From Nemertoderma westbladi (Eukaryota > Animalia > Xenacoelomorpha): a DNA stretch of 64,000 bases. Position numbers and translations under genes: made by a program. The notes below the pieces were generated by a model. The model was given only the letters and a program-made list of their open reading frames with translations. It did not search any database and was not told the origin of the DNA. How positions within the stretch are numbered: position 1 is the stretch's first letter; each line of letters starts with the position of its first letter. The stretch lies in the NCBI GenBank assembly GCA_032718475.1, contig JAUCBJ010002510.1, forward strand, positions 1 through 64,000, read 5' to 3'. Positions 1 through 41,975 of the stretch are shown here, one piece after another.

Positions 1-150
1 GCTCGGCGTACCAACGGGTTAGTCGCATAGGGTCCTGAGGAATGGCGGGTGTAGTAGCCACTGCTGGACGGCGAAGAGGTGCCGGGGTTTTAGACGGAGG
101 GATACCGAGGAGATCGTCGGGGGTCGGCGCATCGCTGGGGCCCTCCTCGA

Positions 151-1734
151 TCAGTATCGCTGCGCGGGTCCGTTGGTGGCTGGTACTCGGAATCTCCGAC
201 GACCAATCTTCGCCACCCGGGAAAGGATACGGGGATAACCTAACCGTTGGCATATGTCGCCGAAATCGCTCAATGCAGCTGTAGTGGCTACCTCCCTCGC
301 GGGGCTACCGGAGCCGCGTGGGGTGTAAACGCCTGCTCTCTTCATCGGTTCGGCCGAGGCAACCCGTTTGGCGGCCGGTCCATACGCGGCCTCCGGCTCG
401 AGTTGTCGCTTCGGGGTGGAGAGTAGAACACCCTCGTTTAGCCATATCTCTTCCCCTTCCGAAGAGATCAGAGGCTCCTCCGCACCGAGAAGTTCGGTAA
501 TCGTAGGGATGTCGTAAGGCCCGCTCTCGTCCCAGGAATCGATAACGGCGAGCGTTTTAGTCTCTCCCGGTGCGATGTTCTCGACCGCTTTGAACGCGTG
601 GTGTATGACCTCGTTCCAGTCGTAGTCGACGAAGGAAAGGGGGACCGCCGTAATAAGGTTATCGAGAGTTCTACAGATAAACTTAGCGACGGTGTAGCAC
701 TCCATAACAACGTAAACGTAGTTCCGTCGATCGGGATTCTCCCACCTTTGGTGTATCGTCCATTTCCGATCAACGTCCTTCCATCGACCCTCTCGCTCGC
801 TCTTTATTTCTAATCCCGGGTATCCACCGTATATTTTATTATAGTCCCGGAATTTCTGGGGTTTGAAGTCGATACCGCCGTTGAGCACAGCGAGGTAGCC
901 GATCCCTGATTTCGTCGGTCTCACCTCTTGGAATCCTCGCATGAACTCGGCGAATCGTAACCAGGCTAGTAGCGTTTGAGTGTCGATGCAATGGCTAAGG
1001 GCGTTGAGGTCGTCTCGTCGGTTTCTTCCTGCAGGAGCGTTCGCGTAGTCGTTCCGGACGTCCGCCTTGATATCCGACCCGATTTTAATGACGTCGAAGT
1101 CGAAGAGGATCTTTTGGATTTCCGGAGGCAGCAACCAGATCGCTCCGGCTGCCTGCACTTCCTGTCTGGGTGTCGGGAATATTCGGCACACCAGTACCAA
1201 ACCGTCCAGGGTTCCGAGGACGACGACTAAGGATCGACCGTATTCTTTCGCCCCGTACTTTTCCTGGTAGTCGTCGCGGTTTTGGATAATCGATACGCGT
1301 TCCTCTCGAAGCGTCGCCGTACACTCCGACAGGTTTCCCCAGTGGGCGAGGTACGTACTCTTGTCGTCGACGAAACTTTGACATCTCGCCAACGTAATCG
1401 CTTTCGAGGTGGGCGTCGCGTTTCCCTCGTTGTCGTAGATCAAACATCGGGATCTGTAGACGCTCTGCCGGAACGTTTCCCAAAACGACGAATCGTCCCC
1501 TCCGGTTGCCTTTGCGTTCCGAGTTCTTTTCAGTCTCGTACTAGCATCGGCTAACCGGAGGGCTCGTAGATTCTTAGAATCCGGTCCCTCTCGCCCGGTG
1601 AATTTAATGACTCGCACATTCTCATTTAGCAGGGTGCTCCAATTTGTATCAAAGTCAGGGGATCCGGGTTGCGAATATTCCAGTAGATCTATCGTGTTAC
1701 GTAATTCGCCGATAATTTGGCGATTTGGGTCCAT
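151..1734 (-). CDS. Accessory ORF2 (527 aa): WRN/EXD2/Mut-7-like DEDDy 3'-5' exonuclease domain
   Basis: ExoI-like CLIYDNEG (D101, E103). LPPEIQKILFDFDVIKIGSDIKADVRND resembles the WRN-exo LPxxLxxLLxDxxIxKVGxxIxxD segment. Then CIDTQ, SGIGYLA and ExoIII-like RWENPDRRNYVYVVMECY (YxxxE in place of YxxxD). Candidate acceptor CTAATTTGTAACAG 14 nt upstream of the ATG. An alternative frame stays open from about 239 to base 1, so the C-terminus may be frameshifted. Confidence 0.75.
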   Translation of the reverse strand: MDPNRQIIGELRNTIDLLEYSQPGSPDFDTNWSTLLNENVRVIKFTGREGPDSKNLRALRLADASTRLKRTRNAKATGGDDSSFWETFRQSVYRSRCLIYDNEGNATPTSKAITLARCQSFVDDKSTYLAHWGNLSECTATLREERVSIIQNRDDYQEKYGAKEYGRSLVVVLGTLDGLVLVCRIFPTPRQEVQAAGAIWLLPPEIQKILFDFDVIKIGSDIKADVRNDYANAPAGRNRRDDLNALSHCIDTQTLLAWLRFAEFMRGFQEVRPTKSGIGYLAVLNGGIDFKPQKFRDYNKIYGGYPGLEIKSEREGRWKDVDRKWTIHQRWENPDRRNYVYVVMECYTVAKFICRTLDNLITAVPLSFVDYDWNEVIHHAFKAVENIAPGETKTLAVIDSWDESGPYDIPTITELLGAEEPLISSEGEEIWLNEGVLLSTPKRQLEPEAAYGPAAKRVASAEPMKRAGVYTPRGSGSPAREVATTAALSDFGDICQRLGYPRILSRVAKIGRRRFRVPATNGPAQRY

Positions 1735-2291
1735 ATTTACGATTATATCTGTTACAAATTAGATCAGTTAATTATAAGTCCAGAAAGTCTGAAACTATAG
1801 CGATAGCAGAATAATTCAGCTTTTTATTTAATTCAGTTTATTAAATAATATTGCTATATAGACATCTATCATCTTATTGCTAATACATTCAGCATTTACA
1901 GTTACTATAGCTATACATAATATCCAACCAGTTTTTTATGACTTTTTTGTCCTTTTCATTTTTCTAATTCTTTTCTTTAGACCTTTTTATACCTTTTTTT
2001 TTGTCTTTTTTCATTTCATTATTATTTCACCACATTTCATTTATTTCCACATATTTCAACACATTTATTTCCACCATTTATTTCACATTTATTTATTTCC
2101 ACATCATCATTGGGTTTATAGCCCCCCGGCTATCATCATTGGTTATAAGCGCAGCACCAGGGTGCGCATCATTTCATTTTCATCATCATACGCGTCATCA
2201 TTCAGGTTTATAGTAGAGTTGTCTGATCCTTTTCATCGTTTCCAACTATATTCAATCATTTTCTTTGGCTAATCTTTGTCGTGGAAGGGGT

Positions 2292-2713
2292 GTTACGCGG
2301 CAATCTGGGATCTACAGCTGGACTCGTTACACCGCCTACGCCCCAAACTGCGCACGTAACGGACAATGAAGACGCTGGGAGTGAAGTCACGTGGATGCAC
2401 CATGGACCCACCAGAATAACACTCCCAACAACATAAAGCTCAGTCGACGAAGTCATGTGGGATGGGGTTACGCAACATTCTGGGATCTACAGCTGGACTC
2501 GTTACACCGCCTACACCCCAAAATCCACGTAACGGTCCCACCAGAATAACGCGACTGAGAAACATAAAACCCTCTATCATCGAAGTCATGTGGATGCACC
2601 ATGGACCCACCAGAATAACGGGATAGAGGGGGTGTTGCGCGGCAATCCGGGATCTACAGCTGGACTCGTTACACCGCCTACGCCCCGAACTGCGCACGCA
2701 ACGGACAACATAA
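2292..2713 (-). ncRNA. Intergenic array of structured RNA motifs (three A hairpins, three B hairpins, UUAUGUU linkers)
   Basis: A copies at 2292-2360, 2467-2533 and 2634-2702 show compensatory changes. B copies are closed by three unrelated but complementary stems. G-U pairs favour the minus strand. Confidence 0.65.
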
Positions 2714-2981
2714 CATACTGCGATGAATACAATGAATTCCACTTCAAATCTTTTCCATTTCCAATAATCCAATATCGTAGGTCCTGATGACCAAAATCAG
2801 GGTAAACAAAACATAAACGACCCTGCGTCAGCCGAAACATCTGCAGGGTGACGCTGGACTCCACATAACACACGAGGAAACACAAATACCATTGCGTGGT
2901 TACAGTTGGTTTAAGGGGGGTCCATAACTCATTGTCAGTAAATCACAGTTTTATAAGAGTTTGTCAACATGATGAGAAGGG

Positions 2982-5900
2982 TTACACGGGTTTGTAATTG
3001 TCACCAATGTCCGCAGCAGGATCTTGAGTAGGGAACTTATCACCTCTCGTAGAGTCACCGCTATCATTGCCTTCAAGAAGGCACAGCCTCTGGATAGGGC
3101 GTTGGTAGTGGCCCTTTGCCGTTCGTATCATCACAGTCCTCGCAAGTCCGTCTTTGCTTGGGTGTATGGTCACGACCCGCGCCACAGGCCAGTAAACGCG
3201 GTCTTTGAGATCTTCTTTAACTCGTACCATGTCGCCAACTGCGACGTTCCGGTAGGTGTTGTTCCATTTCCTCCTGGTCCGGAGGGTTATGAGGTACTCC
3301 CGGGCCCAAATTCTCCACCAATGCGCTGCCAACGCTTGGGCCTTTTTCCAGTTTGTATGTTTCGCGATCTCGTTGGGATCCGGGAACATGGTTTCCGGGA
3401 GAACGTGGGTTTTGGGTCTCCCCAGTAGGTGGTTAGGAGTGAGGGACTCAACTGAGGCGTTTGCCATCCGGGTATTACGGCAGATTAGTCCGTGCTCTCC
3501 CGTTAATGGTGTCAATGTTATCAACGTCATTATTATCATCAACAACCTTATTAGCCACCAAAGCATGGGCAAGCGCCAATGTCCGTCTTTGGACGTTGCC
3601 TGATCAAAAATGTCGGTACAATATTGATCTTCCTCGGACGGATTCTCGTCCTTCTCGGCAAACTCTCGGGTCTCCACATTAAAGCATCCGGTTATCTCCC
3701 GCTGGGTTCTCTCAGTCTGAAGGAAAAAATCCTCGTCCAGGTCTGTAGCTGAGCAATAACCCATGGAGGTTACATTTTCTTTAATCTGACATTTAGGAAG
3801 ATATGTATAGGTGTCAGTAGTTTCTTCCTTGATGCCGCAGAGGGTCCATCCCATTATGGTTCGTTCAGCGTAAAAGCCGTCATCTTTCTTTATGGATCGG
3901 GCGATATCTCCGGTAGGTATGTGTAATTCCGGTGTATCAAGTCCGATCAGTAGGGTGATGCGGTTTACGTCCAACTGCGGACACCTCAGATCTACATCGT
4001 CTCGGTCCAATTGTATGAGGGGGGCGTACTCGGCTGATTGTCGGAACCGCACTCGGAGGTCTGTGTGTACCAAGGCGTTTTTGATGGTTAGCTTGACCGT
4101 CTCGTAGCCCTTCATTACTCCTTCCATTTGGAGTTGCACCTCCCCAGACTCTACCTCTCGGTTATCGGTGATGGTTTGTATGGGCCGTTTACAAGGTTCG
4201 TATTCTAGGCCGAGTTGCTCGAGGAAATCCCGGTCGATGATGGTTCCGTCAGACCCATTATCAAGGAACGTGAGCGTCGTCAGGGATTTGCCGACTCCCT
4301 GAATCCTTACCAGGATTACCTTTGCGAAGACCATGTAGCGGCGATTTATAAGATTAATCGTGGCTGAAATGTTGGTTACTTGTGGTTTATCGGTGGAGAT
4401 TTTAAACGGATTGGTTTCTCTCCGTTGGGTAATCCGGGTTCCTTTGGAAACGTGGTTCGTTTCTCCTCTTCGCTTGGCTTCGATCCGAAAGGGGAGGGTA
4501 GTGAAGTCGAAGTTCGCGGGGATGTGGAGGAGCGTGTGATGACGTAGGTCGTTACAAACCGCACAACACGACCTTTGGTCGCAATCCCGAACGTAGTGAC
4601 CTGTTCCAAGACACCGGAAGCATCCTCGGTGTTTCATCATCGCCTCGAAGCGTGGGACGAGTTCAGCAAACTGGAACTTTCCGCAGAATTCCAACTTATG
4701 TTTCTCTCCGCAGAAGAGACATATAGGGGAGGCTGTGGTGCCTTCCCTTTCGGGTGCCCAATTCGCTAGGTAGCATGCCCATTCTTCTGCTAAGGTCGGT
4801 TCCTCGTAATCCTCGTCATCCGAGTCCTCAGCCATACTGATGGCCATCGCACTCACAGGAGTAGGGCGGAATCTTGGGTTTGGAGTGGGTGCCCTGCTCT
4901 GGTAATTGCTCTCCATTGCGTCCAACTTGGCGAGACTCTGTTTCGAAAACATCGAGTCATTCATGGCTTCGGAGATATCGTCCAGGAATGCCGACATTTC
5001 GAGGAAGCTGGGATCTCGATCTGGATGTCTGTGCCGGAGATCTACGCATTTATAGGCCCACTTACTTTGCAGCCATCCGGGGAACTTCCGGGCGATCTGT
5101 CGGAGGTTTAGAATGTTGTTCACCTGGTCCTCCTTATTTAAGGGTTTCAGAGTGTAGTAGGCATCCTTCATGGAATCTGAAAATTCCTGGAGGTTCTGTG
5201 GGTCCCCTAGTGATCCCGCGTGTTGTATAAGTTTCTCTAGAGTTTTATTAATTATAGTCCCGGTATTTCCGTATCTTTTGTCTAGAGTCTTCCATGCGTC
5301 GTAGTATGCTTCATGAGAACCTCCCTCAAAACAAGCGATGATTCGGCGTGGTTTGTCACCCAGGTATTGCGATAAATATACCAGTTTCTGTGCATCGGCT
5401 ATGTCCGTTGATCCAATCTGCGCAAAGAACCGTTTCTTGAATCTGAGGTAATCGACGGGATCTCCTTCGAAGGTGCGGATCTCCATCTTGGGCATGGAGA
5501 GGCGGTTTTCCAATGCCCGGATAATGCCGATGTTGTCCGAACTGGAGTGGTTCGGAGGGTTATAGTTATTGGCACTCTCTCCCATACTCGATGGATCAAT
5601 GGTAGGTGGAGTTTTAATGATGACGCAACTACGGGTTTGTGGTGTGGATGTGAACGGGTTGTTGGATCGAGGAGTGGCGTCCCGTTCTGAGTCCCTTTCA
5701 GGCTCGTACTTGGGTACACTCGTTGCTGTGGGGTTGGATGAGAAATACGGTTCCTCATTTTTAAGCGTAACCGGTGGGGGATGGAACACCGGTGCTTGTG
5801 CCGATAAGGTGGACTGTATGGTAGGCGGGATCTCGGGTTTCGGAAGTTTCGCCGCTGTTGGTGAAAGTGACTTCTCTAGTTCCGGTACCGGGATTGGTTC

Positions 5901-6800
5901 ATATTCCTGATCTATATCCCTTTCCCAGTCCTCGTATAGTTGAATATCTCGTTCTATAAGTGCGGCTTCGTATTCCGCGAGTTTCGCAATATCCGCATTC
6001 TTTTTGTGGGTGAGAATTGCTTGGGCCTCGGCGTGTTGTTTACGCATTTCTGCTTCCCATTTACGTTGTTCGATCTCTTGTTTGGCCTCTCGTTCACGTT
6101 GTTCAGCCTCCTGTCTATGTTGCTCGGCCCGCCGTTCGACCTCTTGTTCGGCCTCCCGTTTTTGCATTTCGGCGGCTAATATATCTTGCTCGGCTTGCAG
6201 TTGAATATACTCATCTTCCATCCGAGCTTTGAGGGCTAATGCCTTCCGTTCTCGCAGTTGGTCTCGGAGTGGCGGCGCCCCTTGAGAACTGCGCGCTGAG
6301 CCGGATATCTCGCTCCTAGCGCTGGAGTGCTGATTTCTAGCGGACCCCGTTCTCTTTCGATGTACTGCTGTCCTGATGCTGGAGGATCGTACTGATTCCG
6401 CGTCTGTTCTTTCAGCCCTCTTGTAATACTGTTCTTCATAGCCTCTCACAAGGCTGAGGGTCCTCCGGTGTTGTTTGCGGAACCCATCTAGATGTACAAC
6501 GTGTTCTTCCAACTTGGGGTAGTTTTCCTGATCGGTGGAGGGAACGAGCTCTTGGTACGCCTGTATCATTCTTTCGTACCGCTGTAGGATATTTCGGATA
6601 CTTTGAAGCTGAGTTTGTACCTCATTGAGGGGGGTTTTGAATCACTTGAGTTGTTTCTCCATCCGTTGATACGCTCGGGTTACTCCGCCTTTGAGAGCCC
6701 CTAGCCGACGGGTCATGTTCTTGACGTTTGGTACCTCGTCGGCTTCCGAGTCTGTGTGGTGATCCATCTCGTCGGTATCGGATACGTTATTTGTCGTCAT
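2982..6800 (-). pseudogene. BEL/Pao gag-protease ORF fused to the DUF5641-type C-terminus; RT/RNase H/integrase core absent; in-frame TGA at 6642-6644
   Basis: In-frame ATG at 6800 (MTTNN...RRLGALKGGVTR) and DUF1759-like MPKMEIRTFEGDPVDY. Three knuckles: CLFCGEKHKLEFC, CFRCLGTGHYVRDC, CAVCNDLRHHTLLH. Protease FLDNGS and AERTIMGWTLCG, then a jump after GHWRLPMLW to LTPNHLLG...WWRIWAREYL...YQRPIQRLCLLE. Confidence 0.9.
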
Positions 6801-7397
6801 TGTAACGCCTCGTCGATAGCTAGATACGCGATGTCATAAAACAGTTCCTCGTAGGTATTGTACTCAGCTTGGACCACCCGAACGGTAATCCTGAATCGTC
6901 CGACTTCAACTTCGACGTGCCAGATTCCTGGCTCAACTTGGATTATATCAATGGGTGTGATCGATACTTCCATTCCCTGTTAACAACTCTCCAAATATGT
7001 GATCTGCCGACTACGAGTTGGTTAGATCGAGTTTGTTGATTAATTAAACCACGACTTCGTCTCAACTCAAATACCAGAGTTTCCTCGTAGTGGGTGCTGG
7101 CAAGCACGTAGAGAGTTTTGAAGAGTATTGAAGGATTCTCAACTTCCACCAGTTGAAGTTGACCGTAATTATTCTTAATTTTGACACCCTGTCAAAATTA
7201 ACCGCATTAATTATTCTTAATTTTGTTGCCGTTATCCCAACACCAGGGGGGAAAAACGCTGATGCTGGAGACGTGACTGACTTTACAGACCACTGAGCCC
7301 CGGCCAGTCACCGGATATTGATTTTGGAGAAGGAATGTTTTCTGAGATGCAAGTTTGCGGTTGATAAAAAGCTGCATTAGTTGGATATACTCTTTAA

Positions 7398-9158
<1,761 letters not shown>

Positions 9159-9408
9159 TTAATGTAACTTCCTATAGTTGAAACCTGTTCAACATCATTG
9201 AAACCTGATTAAGAATAATTTTGGGCTTCCCCAAATCAATATACACCAAATATTCACAATAATTATACACGATAATATAAATCCCTACGGTATATTATTT
9301 AATAACCCACTGTTCGCTCAGATTTTAGCCTACCTAATGTTCCCCAGATTTTCCCTCGGTCCTAGTCTTAGTGCCGTAGTGTCGGTGTCGGTCGACCCTG
9401 TCGCGTGT

Positions 9409-9653
9409 CCGTTCCACCCCTCACGAACCCCGAAGGGAACGATCATCGAGAACCAGCACGGCTTGGCTAAGGGTCAGTCCAGTCGGTGGACTCTGTCGCG
9501 TATCCGTACCACCCCTCTCGAACCCCGAAGGGATCGGTCATCGAGAACCAGTACGGCTTAGCTCAGGGGGCAGTCGTTAGTCGGCCGCCCGTTCGCGTGT
9601 CCGCTCCACCCCTCACGAACCCCAAAGGGTTCGATCATCGAGAACCAGAACGG
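9409..9653 (-). repeat. Three tandem 95-97 bp units, each containing a 53-nt hairpin with a cUUCGg/cUUUGg loop and a k-turn-like motif
   Basis: Hairpins at 9409-9461, 9504-9556 and 9601-9653. Basal stems vary while keeping pairing (CCGUAC/GUACGG, CCGUUC/GAGCGG). Confidence 0.75.
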
Positions 9654-9864
9654 CTTGGCTACTAAGGGGCTGTCGTTTCCCGTCGCAAATCCCTGACACA
9701 AGCAGTCAGCGTTCCGAGTTCTTTTCAGTCTCGTAATAACTGCTGTTGGCCAGGGACCGCTAAGGGCAGTCCTTGTCCTTTAGGCCTGGCGCATTACCAA
9801 ATCCACCCCTACAGGCAGCAGGAAGTTGGCCAGGGCCTAATAGTACTCAGGCTAACCTGAATAC

Positions 9865-9898
9865 TGCTTGCATTTTCCATCCCCCCCTGGCCCTTATA
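9865..9898 (-). promoter_or_regulatory. Candidate LTR core promoter (TATAAG at 9898-9893; Inr-like GCAGT near 9865)
   Basis: Spacing is about 30-33 nt, and a 10-bp hairpin begins at the predicted start site. Motif match only. Confidence 0.4.
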
Positions 9899-10480
9899 AC
9901 TATGAAATTATTCCCGTACCCTGTAAGTTGCCCCAAAGTTCGCCCATAAATCGCCCCCAGTTTATTGAATGTGCCCAAAACCCATGGTCCCGCACCCAGT
10001 AGTAATATCGGAATAATCAATTTAAAATAAATACAAAAATATTCAACTCGCGTTATGGAAAGTTGAAATACCGCGAACAGTCACTGTCATGATCCTAGGC
10101 TGTCTTCGCTAGCTGCTTGTAAAATCTTCCGATATCGAATATTTATTGATAAATGCATTTCATTTCGGTCGCAGGTGCACTCTCCTGCAACAAATTCTGA
10201 TTGTAATATAATATATCGACGGCTTATTTTCAAAGGGGCCCAAATGCCAAACCTACTGAAAACATAATTATGAGCCAATTTGAAGCTACCCAACATTCTA
10301 AGGCTGTCAATCATTGCGGTTTTAACATATCTCTATTAGTTCATAAGTTATATAAAATAATATATATCAATTGTATATAATATCAATAATATATCATATA
10401 TCATATATATGATATATATCAATAATAATATCAATTGTATATATAAATATAATATTTTGAACGTAATATAATATAATATA

Positions 10481-11100
10481 TTTTATTCCAAAATTGTAAC
10501 ATTACTCAACGCCGTTAGTATTCAGTGAGTTGTTATATAGCACTTTACAACTTTAGAGGACATTACGGCATTGTATTAGCCTGTACATTTAGTATTGTAT
10601 TTGGTGTTATTGTTTACGTGGTAACCATGACGGCGTTAAGTAATGTCCCCCTTGTGTATGGACATTACTTAACGCCGTCATGGTTAACAGGTAAAAAATA
10701 GGTGGAAATTTACCTGACAGCCAAATAGGCCTACTGCATTACCTACCGGTAGGCGGGGTATAGCTATTAATAACCAGTAGGGCCTAGCTATATTATTATA
10801 ACATGGCTCCAAACGCCGCGATAAATATAAGCTAACTTATTTATAACATAATTTATGTCATTTTTACAATTATTTATAAAGCAACTAATTTAATTTGTGC
10901 AGTTTCTATCACTTATAATGTATATGTACAATCATTTCGTAATGTTAAAATTTTGGAATAAAACTACATACATACTTGTTACAAAGTACTTTACAGTGTT
11001 CTGATCCTCGTGGCTTTATTTTCACTCACTCACTAACGTTCGTTCGTGTAACAAAGCAACAATCTTTACACACAAGTATGTAAATAGTTATTATATAATA
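10481..11100. mobile_element. Foldback/non-autonomous DNA element with a perfect 27-bp internal palindrome; possibly Crypton-type
   Basis: Inverted arms TTTTATTCCAAAATT(G/T)TAACATTAC near 10481 and 10962. Perfect hairpin 10622-10648 / 10660-10686. The family assignment is weak. Confidence 0.5.
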
Positions 11101-11285: not shown

Positions 11286-13480
11286 ATTTAATTAATATGA
11301 ATTTTGCTGCAGATATAAATGAATGTTCTATCAATACTGATGATTGCCACAGCAATGCAACATGTACAAATACAAATGGCGGATATTCTTGCGAATGTAA
11401 TTCAGGATATAATGGTGATGGTGTTTTGTGCACTGGTATGTAATTATGATAAGTCTCGCAAACAATAAAATATTCAATATTAAAAAGTGTTACAAAGAAT
11501 CATTAATGGATATTGCACGTGAGAAAGATTATAATTTTTGTGAATCTAATATAAAAATTATACTTATTTAATTAATATGAATTTTGCTGCAGATATAAAT
11601 GAATGTTCTATCAATACTGATGATTGCCACAGCAATGCAACATGTACAAATACAAATGGCGGATATTCTTGCGAATGTAATTCAGGATATAATGGTGATG
11701 GTGTTTTGTGCACTGGTATGTAATTATGATATGTCTCGCAAACAATAAAATAATCAATATTAAAAAGTGTTACAAAGAAGCATTAATGGATGTTGCACGT
11801 GAGAAAGATTATAATTTTTGTGAATCTAATATAAAAATTATACTTATTTAATTAATATGAATTTTGCTGCAGATATAAATGAATGTTCTATCAATACTGA
11901 TGATTGCCACAGCAATGCAACATGTACAAATACAAATGGCGGATATTCTTGCGAATGTAATTCAGGATATAATGGTGATGGTGTTTTGTGCACTGGTATG
12001 TAATTATGATAAGTCTCGCAAACAATAAAATATTCAATATTAAAAAGTGTTACAAAGAAGCATTAATGGATGTTGCACGTGAGAAAGATTATAATTTTTG
12101 TGAATCTAATATACAAATTATACTTATTTAATTAATATGAATTTTGCTGCAGATATAAATGAATGTTCTATCAATACTGATGATTGCCACAGCAATGCAA
12201 CATGTACAAATACAAATGGCGGATATTCTTGCGAATGTAATTCAGGATATAATGGTGATGGTGTTTTGTGCACTGGTATGTAATTATGATAAGTCTCGCA
12301 AACAATAAAATATTCAATATTAAAAAGTGTTACAAAGAAGCATTAATGGATGTTGCACGTGAGAAAGATTATAATTTTTGTGAATCTAATATAAAAATTA
12401 TACTTATTTAATTAATATGAATTTTGCTGCAGATATAAATGAATGTTCTATCAATACTGATGATTGCCACAGCAATGCAACATGTACAAATACAAATGGT
12501 GGATATTCTTGCGAATGTAATTCAGGATATAATGGTGATGGTGTTTTGTGCACTGGTATGTAATTATGATAAGTCTCGCAAACAATATAATATTCAATAT
12601 TCAAAAGTGTTACAATGAACCATTAATGGATATTGCACGTGAGAAAGATTTATAATTTTTGTGAATCTAATATAAAAATTATACTTATTTAATTAATATC
12701 AATTTTGCTGCAGATATAAATGAATGTTCTATCAATACTGATGATTGCCACAGCAATGCAACATGTACAAATACAAATGGAGGATATTCTTGCGAATGTA
12801 ATTCAGGATATAATGGTGATGGTGTTTTGTGCACTGGTATGTAATTATGATAAGTCTCGCAAACAATAAAATATTCAATATTAAAAAGTGTTAAAAAGAA
12901 GCATTAATGGATGTTGCTCGTGAGAAAGATTTATAATTTTTGTGAATCTAATATAAAAATTATACTTATTTAATTAATATGAATTTTGCTGCAGATATAA
13001 ATGAATGTTCTATCAATACTGATGATTGCCACAGCAATGCAACATGTACAAATACAAATGGTGGATATTCTTGCGAATGTAATTCAGGATATAATGGTGA
13101 TGGTGTTTTGTGCACTGGTATGTAATTATGATATGTCTCGCAAACAATAAAATATTCAATATTAAAAAGTGTTACAAAGAAGCATTAATGGATGTTGCTC
13201 GTGAGAAAGATTTATAATTTTTGTGAATCTAATAATATTATAATATCATTAAAAATTATACTTATTTAATTAATATGAATTTTGCTGCAGATATAAATGA
13301 ATGTTCTATCAATACTGATGATTGCCACAGCAATGCAACATGTACAAATACAAATGGCGGATATTCTTGCGAATGTAATTCAGGATATAATGGTGATGGT
13401 GTTTTGTGCACTGGTATGTAATTATGATATGTCTCACAAACAATAAAATAATCAATATTAAAAAGTGTTACAAAGAATCA
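11286..13480 (+). repeat. Tandem array of about 280-bp exon+intron units (8 copies)
   Basis: Periods are 280, 280, 280, 280, 281, 281 and 296 bp, and the introns are almost identical. Confidence 0.95.
11313..13413 (+). CDS. Eight 123-bp calcium-binding EGF exons of a mucin-like gene: 11313-11435, 11593-11715, 11873-11995, 12153-12275, 12433-12555, 12714-12836, 12995-13117, 13291-13413
   Basis: Each is flanked by ttgctgcAG and GTatgt, is phase 1-1, and encodes DINECSINTDDCHSNATCTNTNGGYSCECNSGYNGDGVLCT (cbEGF consensus, six Cys, NAT sequon). Confidence 0.93.
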
Positions 13481-13586: not shown

Positions 13587-14849
13587 AAAAAAGTTGGGCT
13601 AGAAACAATCGAATAAGGGGGGACAGCTCCTGAATGGAGTGGCGGGTGTGTTTTTTGTAAAAGCATGTGGAAACGGTCGAAATTGCGGGTTTAAGTATGC
13701 GCGGGAAGCCAATTTTAAAAATCGGCAGTGATTGGCTGCTACATATTTGACGTCATTACGCAGTGCTCTGATAATTTATTATCTTGGATTCTATGGATAG
13801 AGATTTTCTATCGATTTAAATACATATTAAATCTCAATTATTTCACACGTGGCCTATATCAATTGAAAGCGGAGAGTCTTGCGCGTCTTTTGACACTACA
13901 ATTATATAATTTAATTATTGTGATGTTCATTGATAAAATGAATCAATTCATAATTATAAACCCGTAGATTGCCTGACCGGAATGCAATTAGTATGACTGA
14001 ACCACTCAGCCCTACCCACCTATTGCATTGCAGTATCGGAGTATTGCTGTATTGCAGCTTAAGTTCATTAAGTTGAAATGTTTAGCGGTCAGCGGTAGCT
14101 TGAGAGTGATAAAGCGGTAGGTTTACTCAACTTAATGAACTTAAGCAACAATACAGCAATAGGCCTACTATGGGCGCCAAAAGTCAATGAAAACTCGGAC
14201 TATGAACTATGGCATATAACTATAGCCATATGGCTATACTCGGCTCGGACTCGGACTCGGACCCGGACTCGGACTACTAACTTAGAACTATGACTGATAG
14301 CTCGGAGCGAGAACTCGGACTGATAACTAAGAACGAGAACTCGGACTGAGAATTTTCAATGACTTTTGGCACCATTTCCTACTCCGATATTGCAATGCAA
14401 TAGGTGGCTATAGTTGGTGAGTGCTGCTTGCATACGGGGTCAGGCAATCTACCAAGTTTGCAAAATTGCAAACAGTATTTTATCAATGTTCATGATCATG
14501 AATTTAAGTTATTGCAGTGTTAAAAGACTTAACTTTCCGCTTTCATTTGATATAAGCCACGTGTAAAATGATTGAGATTAAATGTGTGTTTGAATGGATC
14601 TAAAATCCCCCTCCATAGAAACCAAGATAAGAAATTATCAGAGCACTGTGTGCCTAGTGACATAAAATATGTAGCAGCCAATCACAGCCGATTTTCAAAA
14701 TTGTAATCCCGGGCTTACTTAAACCCGCCATTTCGACCGTTTCCACATGTTTTTACAAAAAAAACACACCCCGCCACTCGATTCAGGGCACTTTGTTACC
14801 CCTTATTCGATTGTTTCTAGCCCAACAATTTTTTAGCGCACCAACCCTA
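13587..14849. mobile_element. Intronic foldback MITE with long imperfect inverted arms and a nested small TIR element holding (CTCGGA)n
   Basis: GTTGGGCTAGAAACAATCGAATAAGGGG... is mirrored by ...CCCCTTATTCGATTGTTTCTAGCCCAAC. Inner inverted termini lie near 14170-14197 and 14348-14375. A short fragment of the same family is at about 11120-11180. Confidence 0.8.
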
Positions 14850-38198: not shown

Positions 38199-38347
38199 CA
38201 ACAGAACAACAGAACAACAGAGCAACAGAACAACAGAGCAACAGAACAACAGAGCAACAGAACAACAGAACAACAGAGCAACAGACACACCGATTGAGTT
38301 AGTGGTACCTGTATGCTAAGCTCGCTTACTTTCGTCGCTCGCCCCAC
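38199..38347 (-). mobile_element. Short HINE/Helentron-like or retroposed repeat with a (TTG(C/T)TCTG)n tail, flanked by an exact 25-bp direct repeat
   Basis: ATATAAAAAAAAACATCAGAAATAA at 38174-38198 and 38348-38372. The same element head occurs on the plus strand from 40291. Confidence 0.6.
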
Positions 38348-38631
38348 ATATAAAAAAAAACATCAGAAATAAAAGCAGTAATACAATCTTTAAAATTAAT
38401 GAAATAAAACTAACAGAATGATTGAGTAATACTAACTACGCCATAGGGTAAATATCCAGATGGGCCAGCTATGCCAAAAGCAAATAGCAGCTGTATGACT
38501 GGAGTTGAAATTATCATTAAGGCGGGCATGTGGGGCGAGCCACATAGTTAGCAAAACAATAACCTATAAAATAAAACAAACTGACTAATACAAAATCCTA
38601 AGTAGAATATACAAAACAAAGTTCACATGTT

Positions 38632-40292
38632 TTAGTACAGTCCAATACGGGGAACTAGAGTGTTAAGTGGGGGGCGATGCAAGTTAATTAGAACCGCTTC
38701 AGAATGAATCCTACGCTCGTGGTTAGGAAACCTTTTAGAACATGTAATATTGAGCGCACCGATCCCACAAATAGCAAAGTGCTGCAGTAGCAAGACTTCA
38801 GGACTCGATAGATCGACTCCTAGTCCCTTGCCAGCTGCGTCATTTATGGCACTACGGTGACCTCGGAGGCGCTCATGTAAACGCTGTTCTGTCTGGCCGA
38901 GATACCACAAGTGTGGATGCAGTTTACATTTGATAAAATAAATCACATTAAATGATTTGCAGTTAAATCTCCCATGGATGGGGTCACCCCATGGTGTCCG
39001 GCGCTGGTCTAGAACGGCCGAGCAGCATTTGCAACGAGGCCCATTGCAAGAGTGGTTACCAGAGGCAGAGTTGGCTCGGACTTGGTGATCAACAGTTTTC
39101 CTAACGTTGGGAGGTTACGCGGCACCGTTTGGACTCTAATACCTAGCGAACGCAAGTCAGCATTATATTTGCGGATAACGGGCGCTCGGACAGGCAGGAA
39201 CTGTGGAGTCGTAGGGAGATATATAGAGGTGTATTTTGGCCCATTCGATGTAGTCTTATTTAAATTTAGGGGTGCTGATGGACCCATCCCCCTCCGTTGG
39301 TAAAGACGGCTGCTGCGTGATCAGCACTGGACAAAGACATGTTGGGTTCTACGCATGGAGGGATAGGAGGAAATCCAGCGGATAGTCTCGGTTCTCACAC
39401 AACTTGTGGTACTGGTGTTTATAACATGTGAACAAATGGTTTGAGTCAGTTAAACGACGAATACGCAAAATTTCAGATTTCACCACTGCCCGTAACGTAG
39501 GTTTATGGTGGAAACTAGAGTACATAATAGGTAGTTTATTAGCCATTGGTTTTCTAAATAAACGAGTTCTAAGGGTGTAGGCATTAGCAGCAATCGTTAG
39601 ATCGAGGCAGTCGACACTAGCATGTGAGTACTCCATAGTAAATTGGATGGCATCACTATTATAAAGATTCCGACAAGCTGAGTTGAATGCGGTCTTCATT
39701 AACTCGAAATGCTCATCAGTTAGTCGCTCATCGTAAATGGCGAAACTATCCTATCAGCACCCCAAAATTTAAATAATTTCTACATCGAGTGGACCAAAAT
39801 ACACCTCTATATATCTCCCTACGACCCCACAGTTCCTGCCTGTCCTTACGCCCGTTATCCGCAAATATAATGCTGACTTGCGTTCGCTAGGTATTAGTGT
39901 CCAAACGGTCCCGCATAACCTCCCATCGTTAGGAAAACTGTTGATCACCAAGTCCGAGCCAACTCTGCCTCTTGGTAATCACTCTTGCAATGGGCCTCGT
40001 TGCAAATGCTGCTCGGCCGTTCTAGACCAGCGCCGGACACTATGGGGTTACCCCATCCATTGGAGATTTAACTGCAAATCATTTAATGTGATTTATTTTA
40101 TCAAATGTAAACTGCATCCACAGTTGTGGTATCTCGGCAAGACAGAACAGCGTTTACATGAGCGTCTCCGAGGTCACCGTAGTGCCATAAATGACGCAGC
40201 TGGCAAGGGACTAGGAGTCGATTTATCGAGTCCTGAAGTCTTGCTAGTGCAGCACTTTGCTATTTGTGGTATCGGTGCGCTCAATATTAAAT
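38632..40292 (-). mobile_element. 5'-truncated Penelope-like retroelement (RT C-terminus + GIY-YIG endonuclease) with an inverted partial copy
   Basis: RT thumb FTMEYSHASVDCLDLTI...LFRKP...SFHHKPTLRAVVKSEILRIRR; linker CNGPRCKCC; GIY-YIG NVIYFIKC...YLGQTEQRLHERLRGHR...EAVLI...PPLN. Arms about 38745-39281 (minus) and 39752-40292 (plus). Confidence 0.88.
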
Positions 40293-41975
40293 GTGGGGCG
40301 AGCGACGAAAGTAAGCGAGCTTAGCATACAGGTACCACTAACTCAATCGGTGTGTCTGTGTGTTCTGTTGATCTGTTGTGTCCAATTTTAAACGTTAATA
40401 ACTCAGCCAAATGTTAATGAAATTTAACCAAACTTGGTACACATATAGTCTGGCCAAAGTTTATAAATTTTCCAAGTTGAATTTCCGCGTGGCCTTCGAG
40501 AAGCTAAGATAATAGCAGTTAATTAGTTAATTAAGTTGATTAGGGTAAAAACAGCAATTTCAACCTGCCTCCTTAAAGGATATTAATTATTTTCTAGTAT
40601 AAGATTTAAATAATTATACTTAAAAGTTATACAGCTGTATTCCCCATACCCCATTCCATTATAGTTTTTAATTAGTTCAAGAGATTTGCTTTAAGAAATG
40701 TGTTTTTAATTGATCTAAACGTAATTAAGTTATCAAAATGCCACCGTATCTCTATACTTCGAGCTCCCTCATTCATATTGCCTAGCCTATCTGCTGGCGC
40801 TGCTGGGAACCATAGTCCAACCACCTCAGCACTACTTGGCAATGGGTAATTACATCAATAGGACATAGCCACTACACACGTTCGTGGGGCCATCGCGCAG
40901 GACGAGGCTCAGTTATTAGATACAGATTAAAATTGAGCAATTCTATCCCAAAATCGGTACTTAAGAAATTTAAATAAATAATTAAGAAAATTTAACCAAA
41001 ACGCCATAAGAATAAATCAAAGAAGAGAGGAAAGTCCCCCCCCCCCCCCCCCCTTGCTTCAACCGCCCTCTTAATCTGCACCATCCCCAACCCAAAGGAG
41101 CACAGAGGATTAATGAAAGGCAGATAAAGACAAGCTGACTTTACACCTTACACTACTGTAGTGGCTATGTCCTATTGATGTAATTACCCGTTGCCAAGTA
41201 TTGCTGATTAGGTGGTTTGACTATGGTTCCCAGCAGCGCCAGCAGATAGGCTAGGCAATATGAATGAGGGAGCTCGAGAAGTATAGAGATACGGTGGCAT
41301 TTTGATAACTTAATTACGTTTAGATCAATTAAAAACACATTTCTTAAAGCAAATCTCTTGAACTAATTAAAAACTATAATGGAATGGGTGTATGGGGAAT
41401 ACAGTTATATAATTTTGAAGTATAATTATTTAAATCTTATACTAGAAAATAATTAATATCCTTTAAGAGGCAGGTTGAAATTGCTGATTTTACCCTAATC
41501 AACTTAATTAACTAATTAACTGCTATTATCTTAGCTTCTCGAAGGCCACACGGAAATTCAACTTGAAAATTTCTAAACTTTGGCCAGACTACATGTGTAC
41601 CAAGTTTGGTTAAATTTCATTAACATTTTGCTGAGTTATTAACCAACTTAATTAACTAATTAACTGCTATTATCTTAGCTTCTCGAAGGCCACGCGGAAA
41701 TTCAACTTGGAGAATTTCTAAACTTTTGCCAGACTACATGTGTACCAAGTTTGGTTAAATTTCATTAACATTTGGCTGAGTTATTAACCAACTTAATTAA
41801 GTAATTAACTGCTATTATCTTAGCTTCTCGAAGGCCACGCGGAAATTCAACATGGAAAATTTCTAAACTTTTGCCAGACTACATGTGTACCAAGTTTGGT
41901 TAAATTTCATTAAAATTTTGGCTGTGTTATTAACGTTTATAATTGGACACAACAGATCAACAGAACAACAGAGCA
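40291..41975. mobile_element. Two oppositely oriented copies of a HINE/Helentron-like repeat forming a large foldback
   Basis: 40361-40876 is the reverse complement of 41157-41967. The right arm has three tandem copies of an about 145-bp subunit. Confidence 0.7.

What the first reader, a model, noticed from the sequence alone, without database searches (positions are those of the whole stretch)
9691..9755. Exact 27-nt copy of the exonuclease coding sequence displayed at the tip of an LTR hairpin
Seen: GCGTTCCGAGTTCTTTTCAGTCTCGTA occurs identically at 1514-1540 (inside ORF2, codons S65-A74) and at 9709-9735, in the same orientation, with unrelated flanks. In the LTR it occupies the apex of a stem (minus strand CCCUGGC/GUCAGGG and AGCAGUUA/UGACUGCU). 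A chance 27-mer match within 10 kb is negligible, and it links ORF2 to this LTR. Inference, not resolved: (a) a piRNA-sized self-targeting guide or decoy, since an antisense LTR transcript would be perfectly complementary to ORF2 mRNA; (b) a shared protein-binding hairpin (CGAG-11nt-CUCG); (c) a template-switch site producing subgenomic forms; (d) a one-off RT capture.
Basis: partly seen in the sequence, partly recalled or inferred. Interest (0 to 1): 0.8.

Follow-up and report, generated by a model that had tools for sequence, protein, structure and literature searches.

The report
Shared RNA hairpin module in retrotransposon
The same 27 letters sit at the tip of two predicted RNA hairpins in an animal jumping gene, one inside an extra gene and one in the terminal repeat, and the way the repeat copies vary suggests a folded RNA shape that likely docks a protein, not a small-RNA guide.

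Summary
The exact 27-nt match is real. The two hairpins have unrelated lower stems but the same top: a 5x4 internal loop with the sarcin-ricin/loop E (S/R) pattern, a 4-bp stem and a GAAA tetraloop. The ORF2 hairpin is not a by-product of the protein (2 of 3000 synonymous recodings fold as well). The element is a high-copy BEL/Pao family. The module is present across LTR copies but is not sequence-frozen: 3 of the 27 positions vary, and only about 22-39% of summed depth is ORF2-identical. The common variants keep the fold, and the loop variants are swaps known from natural S/R motifs. The LTR hairpin is one unit of an array of hairpin modules whose number varies. Best reading: a cis-acting RNA module, likely copied from ORF2 into the LTR and likely protein-bound. 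Variable spacers are not supported, and guide and switch-site ideas gain no support. Variation at the ORF2 site, expression and the binding partner are untested. No look-alike stretch was found in earlier scan notes.

The parts
9709..9735 (-). 27-nt shared apex, LTR copy
   Evidence: exact match; variants across LTR copies
1514..1540 (-). 27-nt shared apex, ORF2 copy (codons 65-74, a basic stretch N-terminal to the exonuclease-like domain)
9691..9755 (-). LTR hairpin module M4: 17-bp lower stem with three single 3'-side bulges; S/R-pattern 5x4 loop (9738-9734 opposite 9714-9711); 4-bp stem; small internal loop; GAAA tetraloop. A basal extension runs to about 9676/9766
1498..1562 (-). ORF2 hairpin: unrelated lower stem, same 5x4 loop (1543-1539 opposite 1519-1516, with the canonical bulged G at 1541) and same top
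   Evidence: (lower-stem pair probabilities 0.97-1.00)
9385..9676 (-). Three related hairpin modules M1-M3 (about 96 nt each) with a kink-turn-like loop (consensus recalled) and a UUCG/UUUG tip; they share a linker and basal motif with M4
   Evidence: unit-length skips in other copies
9778..9865 (-). Hairpin module M5 (shares an 11-nt stem start with M4) and a 10-bp hairpin before it
9198..10079 (-). 5' LTR, first part (starts TGTT at 10079)
   Evidence: depth about 3-4 times the internal region and a contig joint 7397 to 9198
7398..9197 (.). Low-depth insertion with inverted repeats (likely a DNA transposon) that splits this LTR copy
   Evidence: joint skipping 1800 nt in run X4 and depth drop; 18-nt inverted repeat at 7567/9082
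7152..7397 (-). 5' LTR, last part, followed by TGG at 7151 (likely primer-binding site; tRNA not identified)
2982..6569 (-). ORF1: BEL/Pao gag (DUF1759), zinc knuckle, protease, then directly DUF5641; no RT, RNase H or integrase core in this copy
   Evidence: Pfam; homologues carry Peptidase_A17, RT and integrase families; depth dip at 3401-3740
2280..2720 (-). Second hairpin array between ORF1 and ORF2: two motif types, one nested in the other, with conserved tips and stems that differ by paired changes
151..1734 (-). ORF2: likely DEDD/WRN-type exonuclease fold at about residues 150-345; the frame appears broken near 230-240 in this copy
   Evidence: Atlas (lead: PF01612, score 0.94); three distant homologues; Pfam and PDB gave nothing

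Best explanation
The 27-mer is the shared top of two predicted sense-strand RNA hairpins that likely form the same S/R (bulged-G, loop E) motif under a GAAA tetraloop, and it likely works as a protein-docking signal on the retrotransposon's own RNA. Shown: the exact match; a predicted hairpin at both sites with the same loop geometry; presence across LTR copies; structure-neutral variation at the LTR site; membership of an LTR hairpin array whose unit number varies. Inferred origin: the top was likely copied once from ORF2 onto the tip of an existing LTR array hairpin by a template switch during reverse transcription. In ORF2 the letters are also held by coding. In the LTR they drift, for example an A.A mismatch becoming a C-G pair, a change that would alter residue 67 in ORF2. 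Inferred job: handling of the element's RNA (export, localisation or packaging), as for U3/R response elements of retroviruses. The single most likely ligand is the ORF2 protein itself (about 0.3 given this reading), binding both its own message and the LTR; host export or transport factors and Gag are the alternatives.
For:: z -5.84 (ORF2) and -3.45 (LTR) on the sense strand; the same 5x4 loop in both minimum-energy folds; 2 of 3000 full and 0 of 3000 flank-only synonymous recodings fold as well; best of 93 ORF2 windows (z -4.5, next -3.2); 0 of 2000 random LTR placements of the 27-mer give 17 cross pairs or the observed energy; of 12 substitutions in the hairpin, 7 are unpaired, 2 keep the pair and 3 break it; the breakers are rare (summed frequency 0.10 against 0.90 expected, P = 0.022). 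Loop variants are AA to AC at the position of the trans-Hoogsteen pair, UC to CC at the next pair, and G/U/C at the bulge; all are described for natural S/R motifs (PMC8450098, section 14 read, passages). The three core loop bases and all 34 G/C positions do not vary at 2% or more (P about 1e-4 against the element-wide mix; about 0.005-0.009 for the 6 commonest sites). The same design, conserved tip on a re-paired stem, recurs in two arrays of the element.
Against: By count alone, 3 pair-breaking variants of 12 is not significant (P = 0.28), and copies are related, so neither P value is a clean probability. The LTR copy lacks the bulged G, which destabilises S/R motifs. In the window's own LTR allele the non-motif register is favoured, 0.63 against 0.37. 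The LTR flanks fold into a hairpin without the 27-mer (-19.9 kcal/mol), and 52 of 2000 random LTR placements reach 14 cross pairs, so a neutral capture at a hairpin tip can mimic part of the picture. The module is no less variable than the element (6 of 65 sites near or above 10% against 5.3-5.6% element-wide). Deletions of 1-2 nt at 9694-9697 occur at up to about 6% of depth and were not evaluated. No binding partner or probing data exist, and the exonuclease fold of ORF2 is only a lead (model pLDDT 37, no fold hit).
Confidence: 0.55

Rival explanations
1. Neutral passenger: a one-off template switch put 27-30 nt of ORF2 on the tip of an existing LTR hairpin in the family's ancestor. The ORF2 hairpin may be functional, but the LTR copy does nothing of its own.
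For: The LTR flanks pair without the 27-mer. The LTR copy lacks the bulged G and varies at 3 of 27 positions. The count-based test is not significant (P = 0.28). Hairpin tips are known pausing and switching points for reverse transcriptase (own knowledge).
Against: High-frequency variants either keep pairs or add one, and one shifts the register to the ORF2-like loop. The linked AA-to-AC and UC-to-CC changes match natural S/R variation. No G/C site varies.
Confidence: 0.22
2. Programmed template-switch or recombination site that makes subgenomic forms or keeps the two copies homogenised.
For: 27 nt of identity in direct orientation is enough for copy choice (own knowledge). About 22-39% of LTR depth stays ORF2-identical, which recurrent conversion could explain.
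Against: None of the 15 of 30 joints shown links the sites. One search lists no joint, and none of the 14 of 40 loose ends shown carries ORF2 flank. Most LTR depth has diverged from the ORF2 letters.
Confidence: 0.08
3. piRNA-sized self-targeting guide or decoy, possibly with variable spacers.
For: The length is in the piRNA range, and an antisense transcript would match ORF2 perfectly in a minority of copies.
Against: The gain is nil, since the LTR is itself in the element's RNA (logic from LTR replication). 56-57% of LTR depth mismatches at 9729. No alternative apex of unrelated sequence was seen. The target site is buried in a strong hairpin, and the LTR fold is significant only on the sense strand.
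Confidence: 0.05
4. The module is a domain of a catalytic or tertiary-folded RNA: an unknown ribozyme, or a GNRA loop docking into a receptor elsewhere in the array.
For: S/R motifs and GNRA loops are common tertiary modules (PMC8450098 passages; own knowledge). Unchecked scan notes describe many ribozyme repeats in this genome.
Against: Rfam gave no ribozyme match in 1-11000 at E up to 5. Self-cleavage inside ORF2 would be costly. The loop is smaller than loop B of the hairpin ribozyme (recalled).
Confidence: 0.1

Closest known systems
Sarcin-ricin / loop E (bulged-G) RNA motif (PMC8450098; section 14 and passages read)
   Same: 5x4 asymmetric loop with the canonical letters at ORF2; LTR variants match described AA/AC, UC/CC and bulged-base substitutions.
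   Different: Here it sits in a retrotransposon RNA, twice, under a longer tip with its own GAAA loop. The LTR copy carries U or C at the bulge. No 3D or probing data.
Retroviral response and transport elements: HERV-K RcRE bound by Rec, MPMV CTE (PMC11379458; passages read)
   Same: A structured RNA in the LTR region of an element that also has an accessory ORF with a basic stretch.
   Different: BEL/Pao retrotransposon, not a retrovirus. The accessory ORF is exonuclease-like. The motif is duplicated inside that ORF. No sequence homology was tested or found, and export activity is untested.
Egalitarian-bound localisation stem-loops, including the I-factor ILS (PMC13186709; passages read)
   Same: Long bent hairpins with bulges on the 3' strand, one lying in a retrotransposon coding region, read in part by an exonuclease-homology domain.
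   Different: No S/R loop is mentioned in the passages seen. Here 27 nt are identical.
Bdelloid Juno/Vesta LTR retrotransposons with DEDDy ORF3 (PMC5408684; part 1 of 5 and passages read)
   Same: An LTR retrotransposon with an extra 3' ORF of DEDD exonuclease type; the authors note that inactive DEDD derivatives (Maelstrom, EXD1) bind RNA.
   Different: Those belong to other LTR clades and keep intact catalytic residues; 'hairpin' and 'stem-loop' occur 0 times in the paper. Here the host is BEL/Pao, and the first acidic motif reads D-x-Q where three homologues have D-x-E.

Membership tests
S/R (bulged-G, loop E) motif | 5x4 asymmetric internal loop between Watson-Crick helices | tested here: met
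   minimum-energy folds of both sites; the LTR window allele has a competing register; definition
S/R (bulged-G, loop E) motif | Conserved U-A and A-G core with allowed AA/AC and UC/CC pairs | tested here: met
   U9735, A9734, G9714, A9713 and A9737 show no variant at 2% or more; 9712 and 9738 vary only to allowed letters
S/R (bulged-G, loop E) motif | Bulged G in the base triple | tested here: inconclusive
   met at ORF2 (G1541); the LTR has U or C, a rarer and less stable described variant
S/R (bulged-G, loop E) motif | S-turn geometry shown by structure or probing | not testable with these tools
   no experimental data
BEL/Pao LTR retrotransposon | DUF1759 gag, CCHC knuckle, protease, DUF5641; LTR starting TG; PBS-like TGG | tested here: met
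BEL/Pao LTR retrotransposon | RT, RNase H (Peptidase_A17) and integrase core in pol | tested here: not met
   absent from this copy; the depth dip and loose ends at 3401-3740 suggest other copies differ there, so likely an internally deleted copy
Rec/Rex-type response element | Binds an element-encoded accessory protein and confers export of unspliced RNA | not testable with these tools
   no binding or reporter data
Rec/Rex-type response element | Lies in the transcribed U3/R part of the LTR | tested here: inconclusive
   candidate TATAA at 9898 and 9267, and candidate poly(A) signals at 9966 and 9303, allow U3, R or U5; start and end of the RNA are unmapped
DEDD/WRN-type 3'-5' exonuclease (ORF2) | Fold and Exo I-III acidic residues | tested here: inconclusive
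   Atlas 0.94 to PF01612 clusters; Exo II-like segment conserved; Exo I reads D-x-Q; Pfam none; model too poor
CRISPR-like variable spacer or guide array | Apex replaced by different sequences in different copies | tested here: not met
   one search shows point variants and one single-base insertion inside the apex, and no joints; 14 of 40 loose ends shown, all LTR-type variants or flanks
Known Rfam ribozyme, miRNA or snoRNA family | Covariance-model match | tested here: not met
   four matches in 1-11000 at E up to 5, all below gathering score, none at either site

The most novel reading that the evidence does not exclude
A BEL/Pao retrotransposon has built a Rex/Rec-like circuit from a captured, probably non-catalytic DEDD exonuclease. 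The ORF2 protein binds an S/R-GAAA hairpin that is encoded in its own basic N-terminal codons and was copied into a modular LTR array of 3D RNA motifs (kink-turn-like and S/R units). That couples autoregulation of ORF2 to export or transport of the element's RNA.
Probability: 0.18. Interest if true: 0.82.

Novelty: new variant of a known kind. Interest (0 to 1): 0.5.

Why it matters
Cis-acting RNA signals of BEL/Pao elements are poorly described, and the role of exonuclease-like extra ORFs in LTR retrotransposons was left open by the paper that reported them (PMC5408684). This family offers a small, defined RNA motif that occurs twice, with natural variants that already mark the tolerated positions, next to a candidate RNA-binding ORF. 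That makes the question directly testable with short RNAs. Five literature searches (listings only, open-licence library) showed no report of S/R or kink-turn hairpin arrays in a retrotransposon LTR; this is not proof of absence.

Tried and rejected
Own genome: none held. Relatives with DNA context: none in viral contigs (protein; pattern) or metagenome contigs (protein: 124 pattern hits, 0 confirmed; pattern: 0). Genome contigs, phages and plasmids were not searched. ORF2 homologues: 0 of 3686 candidates; 3 distant proteins, each a singleton without a name; the profile search returned only one of these three. ORF2 structure: two poor models (pLDDT 36 and 37); the PDB fold search was uninformative; PDB sequence searches gave no meaningful hit. 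Expression: no RNA holder listed; run X5 is only guessed to be RNA, so it is used as a second organism label and not as expression evidence. Variation at the ORF2 site: one search showed only 40 of 788 substitution rows, none at either 27-mer, and even the 57% LTR variant was not among them, so it says nothing there; the second and last lay went to the LTR site. The 13-nt inverted match between 9685 and 4279 is at chance level for 11 kb (about two expected, my estimate). An HDV-like reading of the plus strand of M1-M3 and a hammerhead-like reading near 2780-2850 were dropped by eye: the segments fold as plain hairpins and Rfam is silent. SECIS was rejected by eye for M1-M3 (short upper helix, no apical adenines; consensus recalled). 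The first motif scan was badly written and missed both sites; it was redone (2 hits on the minus strand, the two sites, and 1 unrelated hit on the plus strand in 64 kb). That pattern and the kink-turn pattern (3 minus, 0 plus in 1-10100) were written after seeing the motifs, so these scans are descriptive only. Supplements of the four papers were not read.

Full report
OBSERVATION. The 27-mer occurs identically at 1514-1540 and 9709-9735; about 4e-9 such matches are expected in 10.2 kb. Apart from the tandem units at 2280-2720 it is the longest direct match in the first 11 kb. It covers ORF2 codons 65-74.

THE ELEMENT. The minus strand carries a BEL/Pao retrotransposon. ORF1 (6569-2982) has DUF1759, a CCHC knuckle, a protease and then DUF5641, with no RT, RNase H or integrase core; its homologues are full BEL/Pao polyproteins. 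ORF2 (1734-151) has no Pfam hit. The Atlas places residues 135-365 near PF01612 3'-5' exonucleases (0.94, 170 of 256 features, a lead only). Three distant unnamed proteins align with it, with D-x-E where ORF2 has D-x-Q, so catalysis may be impaired (inference). Contigs of four public runs show a high-copy family: internal depth is 86-113 times that of the insert at 8501-8840 and LTR depth is 3-4 times internal in X1 and X3 (summed contig depth is not a copy number). A contig joint from 7397 to 9198 shows that the 5' LTR (10079 to about 7152) is split here by a 1.8-kb insertion. Whether the hairpin lies in U3, R or U5 is open; in each case it would be in the genomic RNA.

BOTH COPIES CAP A HAIRPIN. 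On the sense strand the ORF2 site folds at z = -5.84 (0 of 200 shuffles) and the LTR site at z = -3.45 (1 of 200); on the plus strand the values are -5.19 and -1.29. In a 400-nt context the ORF2 lower stem has pair probabilities of 0.97-1.00. Both minimum-energy folds give the same top: two pairs, a 5x4 internal loop, four pairs, a small internal loop, two pairs and a GAAA loop. The 27-mer starts right after the third base of the 5-nt loop strand and ends two pairs below the loop, so the identity covers the motif and stops where plain pairing takes over. The ORF2 hairpin is not forced by the protein: 2 of 3000 synonymous recodings, and 0 of 3000 with the 27-mer codons fixed, fold as well, and it ranks first of 93 ORF2 windows.

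THE LOOP HAS THE S/R PATTERN. PMC8450098 (section 14 read; passages) defines the sarcin-ricin/loop E motif as a 5x4 loop. Its trans-Hoogsteen pair is AA or AC, its next pair can be UC or CC among others, and its bulged G can become U, A or C at a cost in stability. ORF2 has the canonical letters with G1541 bulged. The LTR copy has U at the bulge. I assigned the positions by sequence; no 3D data exist.

VARIATION AMONG LTR COPIES (9660-9790, 2% threshold; 13 substitution rows, 12 of them in the hairpin; 5 indel rows; no joints; 14 of 40 loose ends shown). In RNA sense, with ranges over X1, X3 and X4: bulge U9736 to C 34-49%; U9739 to C 38-69%, turning U-G into the C-G that ORF2 has; A9729 to C 56-57% and A9720 to G 29-38%, which together would close an A.A mismatch into a C-G pair (phasing assumed); A9712 to C 5-21%, seen with U9738 to C 3-19%, giving AC and CC; A9744 to G 22-36% (A-U to G-U). 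Pair-breaking changes are rare: 9744 to U 4-7%, 9708 2-6%, 9746 0-3%. In the ORF2-like register 7 changes are unpaired, 2 keep the pair and 3 break it; P = 0.022 by frequency weight but 0.28 by count. None of 34 G/C positions varies, against about 55-59% of variable sites expected at G/C (P about 1e-4 for 11 sites, 0.005-0.009 for the six commonest). Copies are related, so these P values are indicative only. The single X5 contig (second organism label) spans the stretch with 7 differences and shows the 9712/9738/9739 type. So the module is family-wide, is not a variable spacer, and is not frozen: about 22-39% of depth is ORF2-identical.

IT IS ONE UNIT OF AN ARRAY. Between 9385 and 9865 the LTR holds three related hairpins with a kink-turn-like loop (consensus recalled), the 27-mer hairpin, and two more. 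The first four share a linker and a basal motif. The three-copy alignment has only 2 of 27 pairs with two-sided changes and a positive covariation term, so it is weak support. Other copies skip 96, 99 or 194 nt or repeat 199 nt here. A second array at 2280-2720 repeats two motif types with conserved tips on re-paired stems. The 27-mer thus fits a general design of this element.

HOW IT LIKELY AROSE AND WORKS. The LTR flanks pair on their own (-19.9 kcal/mol), and the basal scaffold is that of the neighbouring modules. The top was therefore likely copied from ORF2 onto an existing array hairpin by a template switch. The commonest LTR change, at 9729, would alter residue 67 if it occurred in ORF2, which fits ORF2 as source, but ORF2 variation was not measured. 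Random placement of the 27-mer in the LTR never gave the observed 17 cross pairs (0 of 2000) but gave 14 or more in 52 of 2000, so position alone does not prove function. I judge a functional, protein-bound module at 0.55, a neutral passenger at 0.22, a catalytic or tertiary RNA domain at 0.10, a switch site at 0.08 and a small-RNA guide at 0.05. The guide idea adds nothing that antisense LTR RNA would not already do. No joint between the sites was among the 15 of 30 shown.

COMPARISON. It would work like LTR-region response elements (RcRE with Rec, CTE; PMC11379458, passages) or like bent, bulged localisation hairpins read by Egalitarian's exonuclease-homology module, one of which lies in the I-factor coding region (PMC13186709, passages). 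Membership of either is untested. Exonuclease ORFs in LTR retrotransposons are known from bdelloids (PMC5408684, part 1 of 5 and passages), with no hairpin mentioned. Searches (listings only) showed no such array in a retrotransposon. The basic helix coded by the hairpin recalls arginine-rich RNA-binding motifs; this is from memory and untested. Earlier scan notes had no look-alike stretch; one search listed 8 notes on this genome, about ribozyme repeats and an insert in a BEL/Pao pol gene, all unchecked.

VERDICT. The feature is real and better explained as a duplicated RNA 3D module than as a guide. It is a new variant of a known kind; interest 0.5. The partner, expression and ORF2-site variation remain open.

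Noticed in passing
window 9385-9676 (-): Three tandem hairpins with a kink-turn-like loop (3-nt bulge, tandem G.A pairs; consensus recalled) and UUCG-type tips in the LTR; unit number varies among copies. They might bind an L7Ae-family protein.
   Followed up: partly
window 2280-2720 (-): Second hairpin array before ORF2: motif A (33-38 nt identical tips, stems with paired changes) and motif B, with A nested in the tip of one B. Could be a translation or export element for ORF2.
   Followed up: partly
window 1750-2260 (-): Very A-rich, weakly structured leader between the second array and the ORF2 start.
   Followed up: no
window 9842-9898 (-): TATAA at 9898 followed about 33 nt later by a 10-bp hairpin; with ATTAAA at 9303 this would put the whole array in a long R region, at both ends of the RNA.
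   Followed up: no
window 7398-9197: Low-depth insertion with inverted repeats in the LTR, absent from a contig of run X4 that has 15 other letters at the joint.
   Followed up: partly
window 7161-7225: Duplicated 18-nt segment around a hairpin at the LTR 3' end; some copies skip 44-48 nt here.
   Followed up: no
window 3401-3740: Depth dip and loose ends where pol is missing; the segment here is rare in the family and may be a filler at the deletion point.
   Followed up: no
window 15667 to about 37600: About 22 kb satellite with an 18-nt period (1206 copies in register) and strong strand skew.
   Followed up: no
window 11300-12000 and onward: Tandem units of about 270 nt, each holding what reads by eye as an EGF-like exon; likely the host gene.
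   Followed up: no
window 10481-10963, 13587-14832, 38281-41967: Nested long inverted repeats (foldback or MITE-like); the 10608-10700 arm pair gave a sub-threshold Rfam miRNA hit.
   Followed up: no
P0001: The closest ORF2 homologue joins the exonuclease-like domain to several C-terminal Cys/His knuckles, which hints at a wider family of RNA-binding accessory proteins.
   Followed up: no
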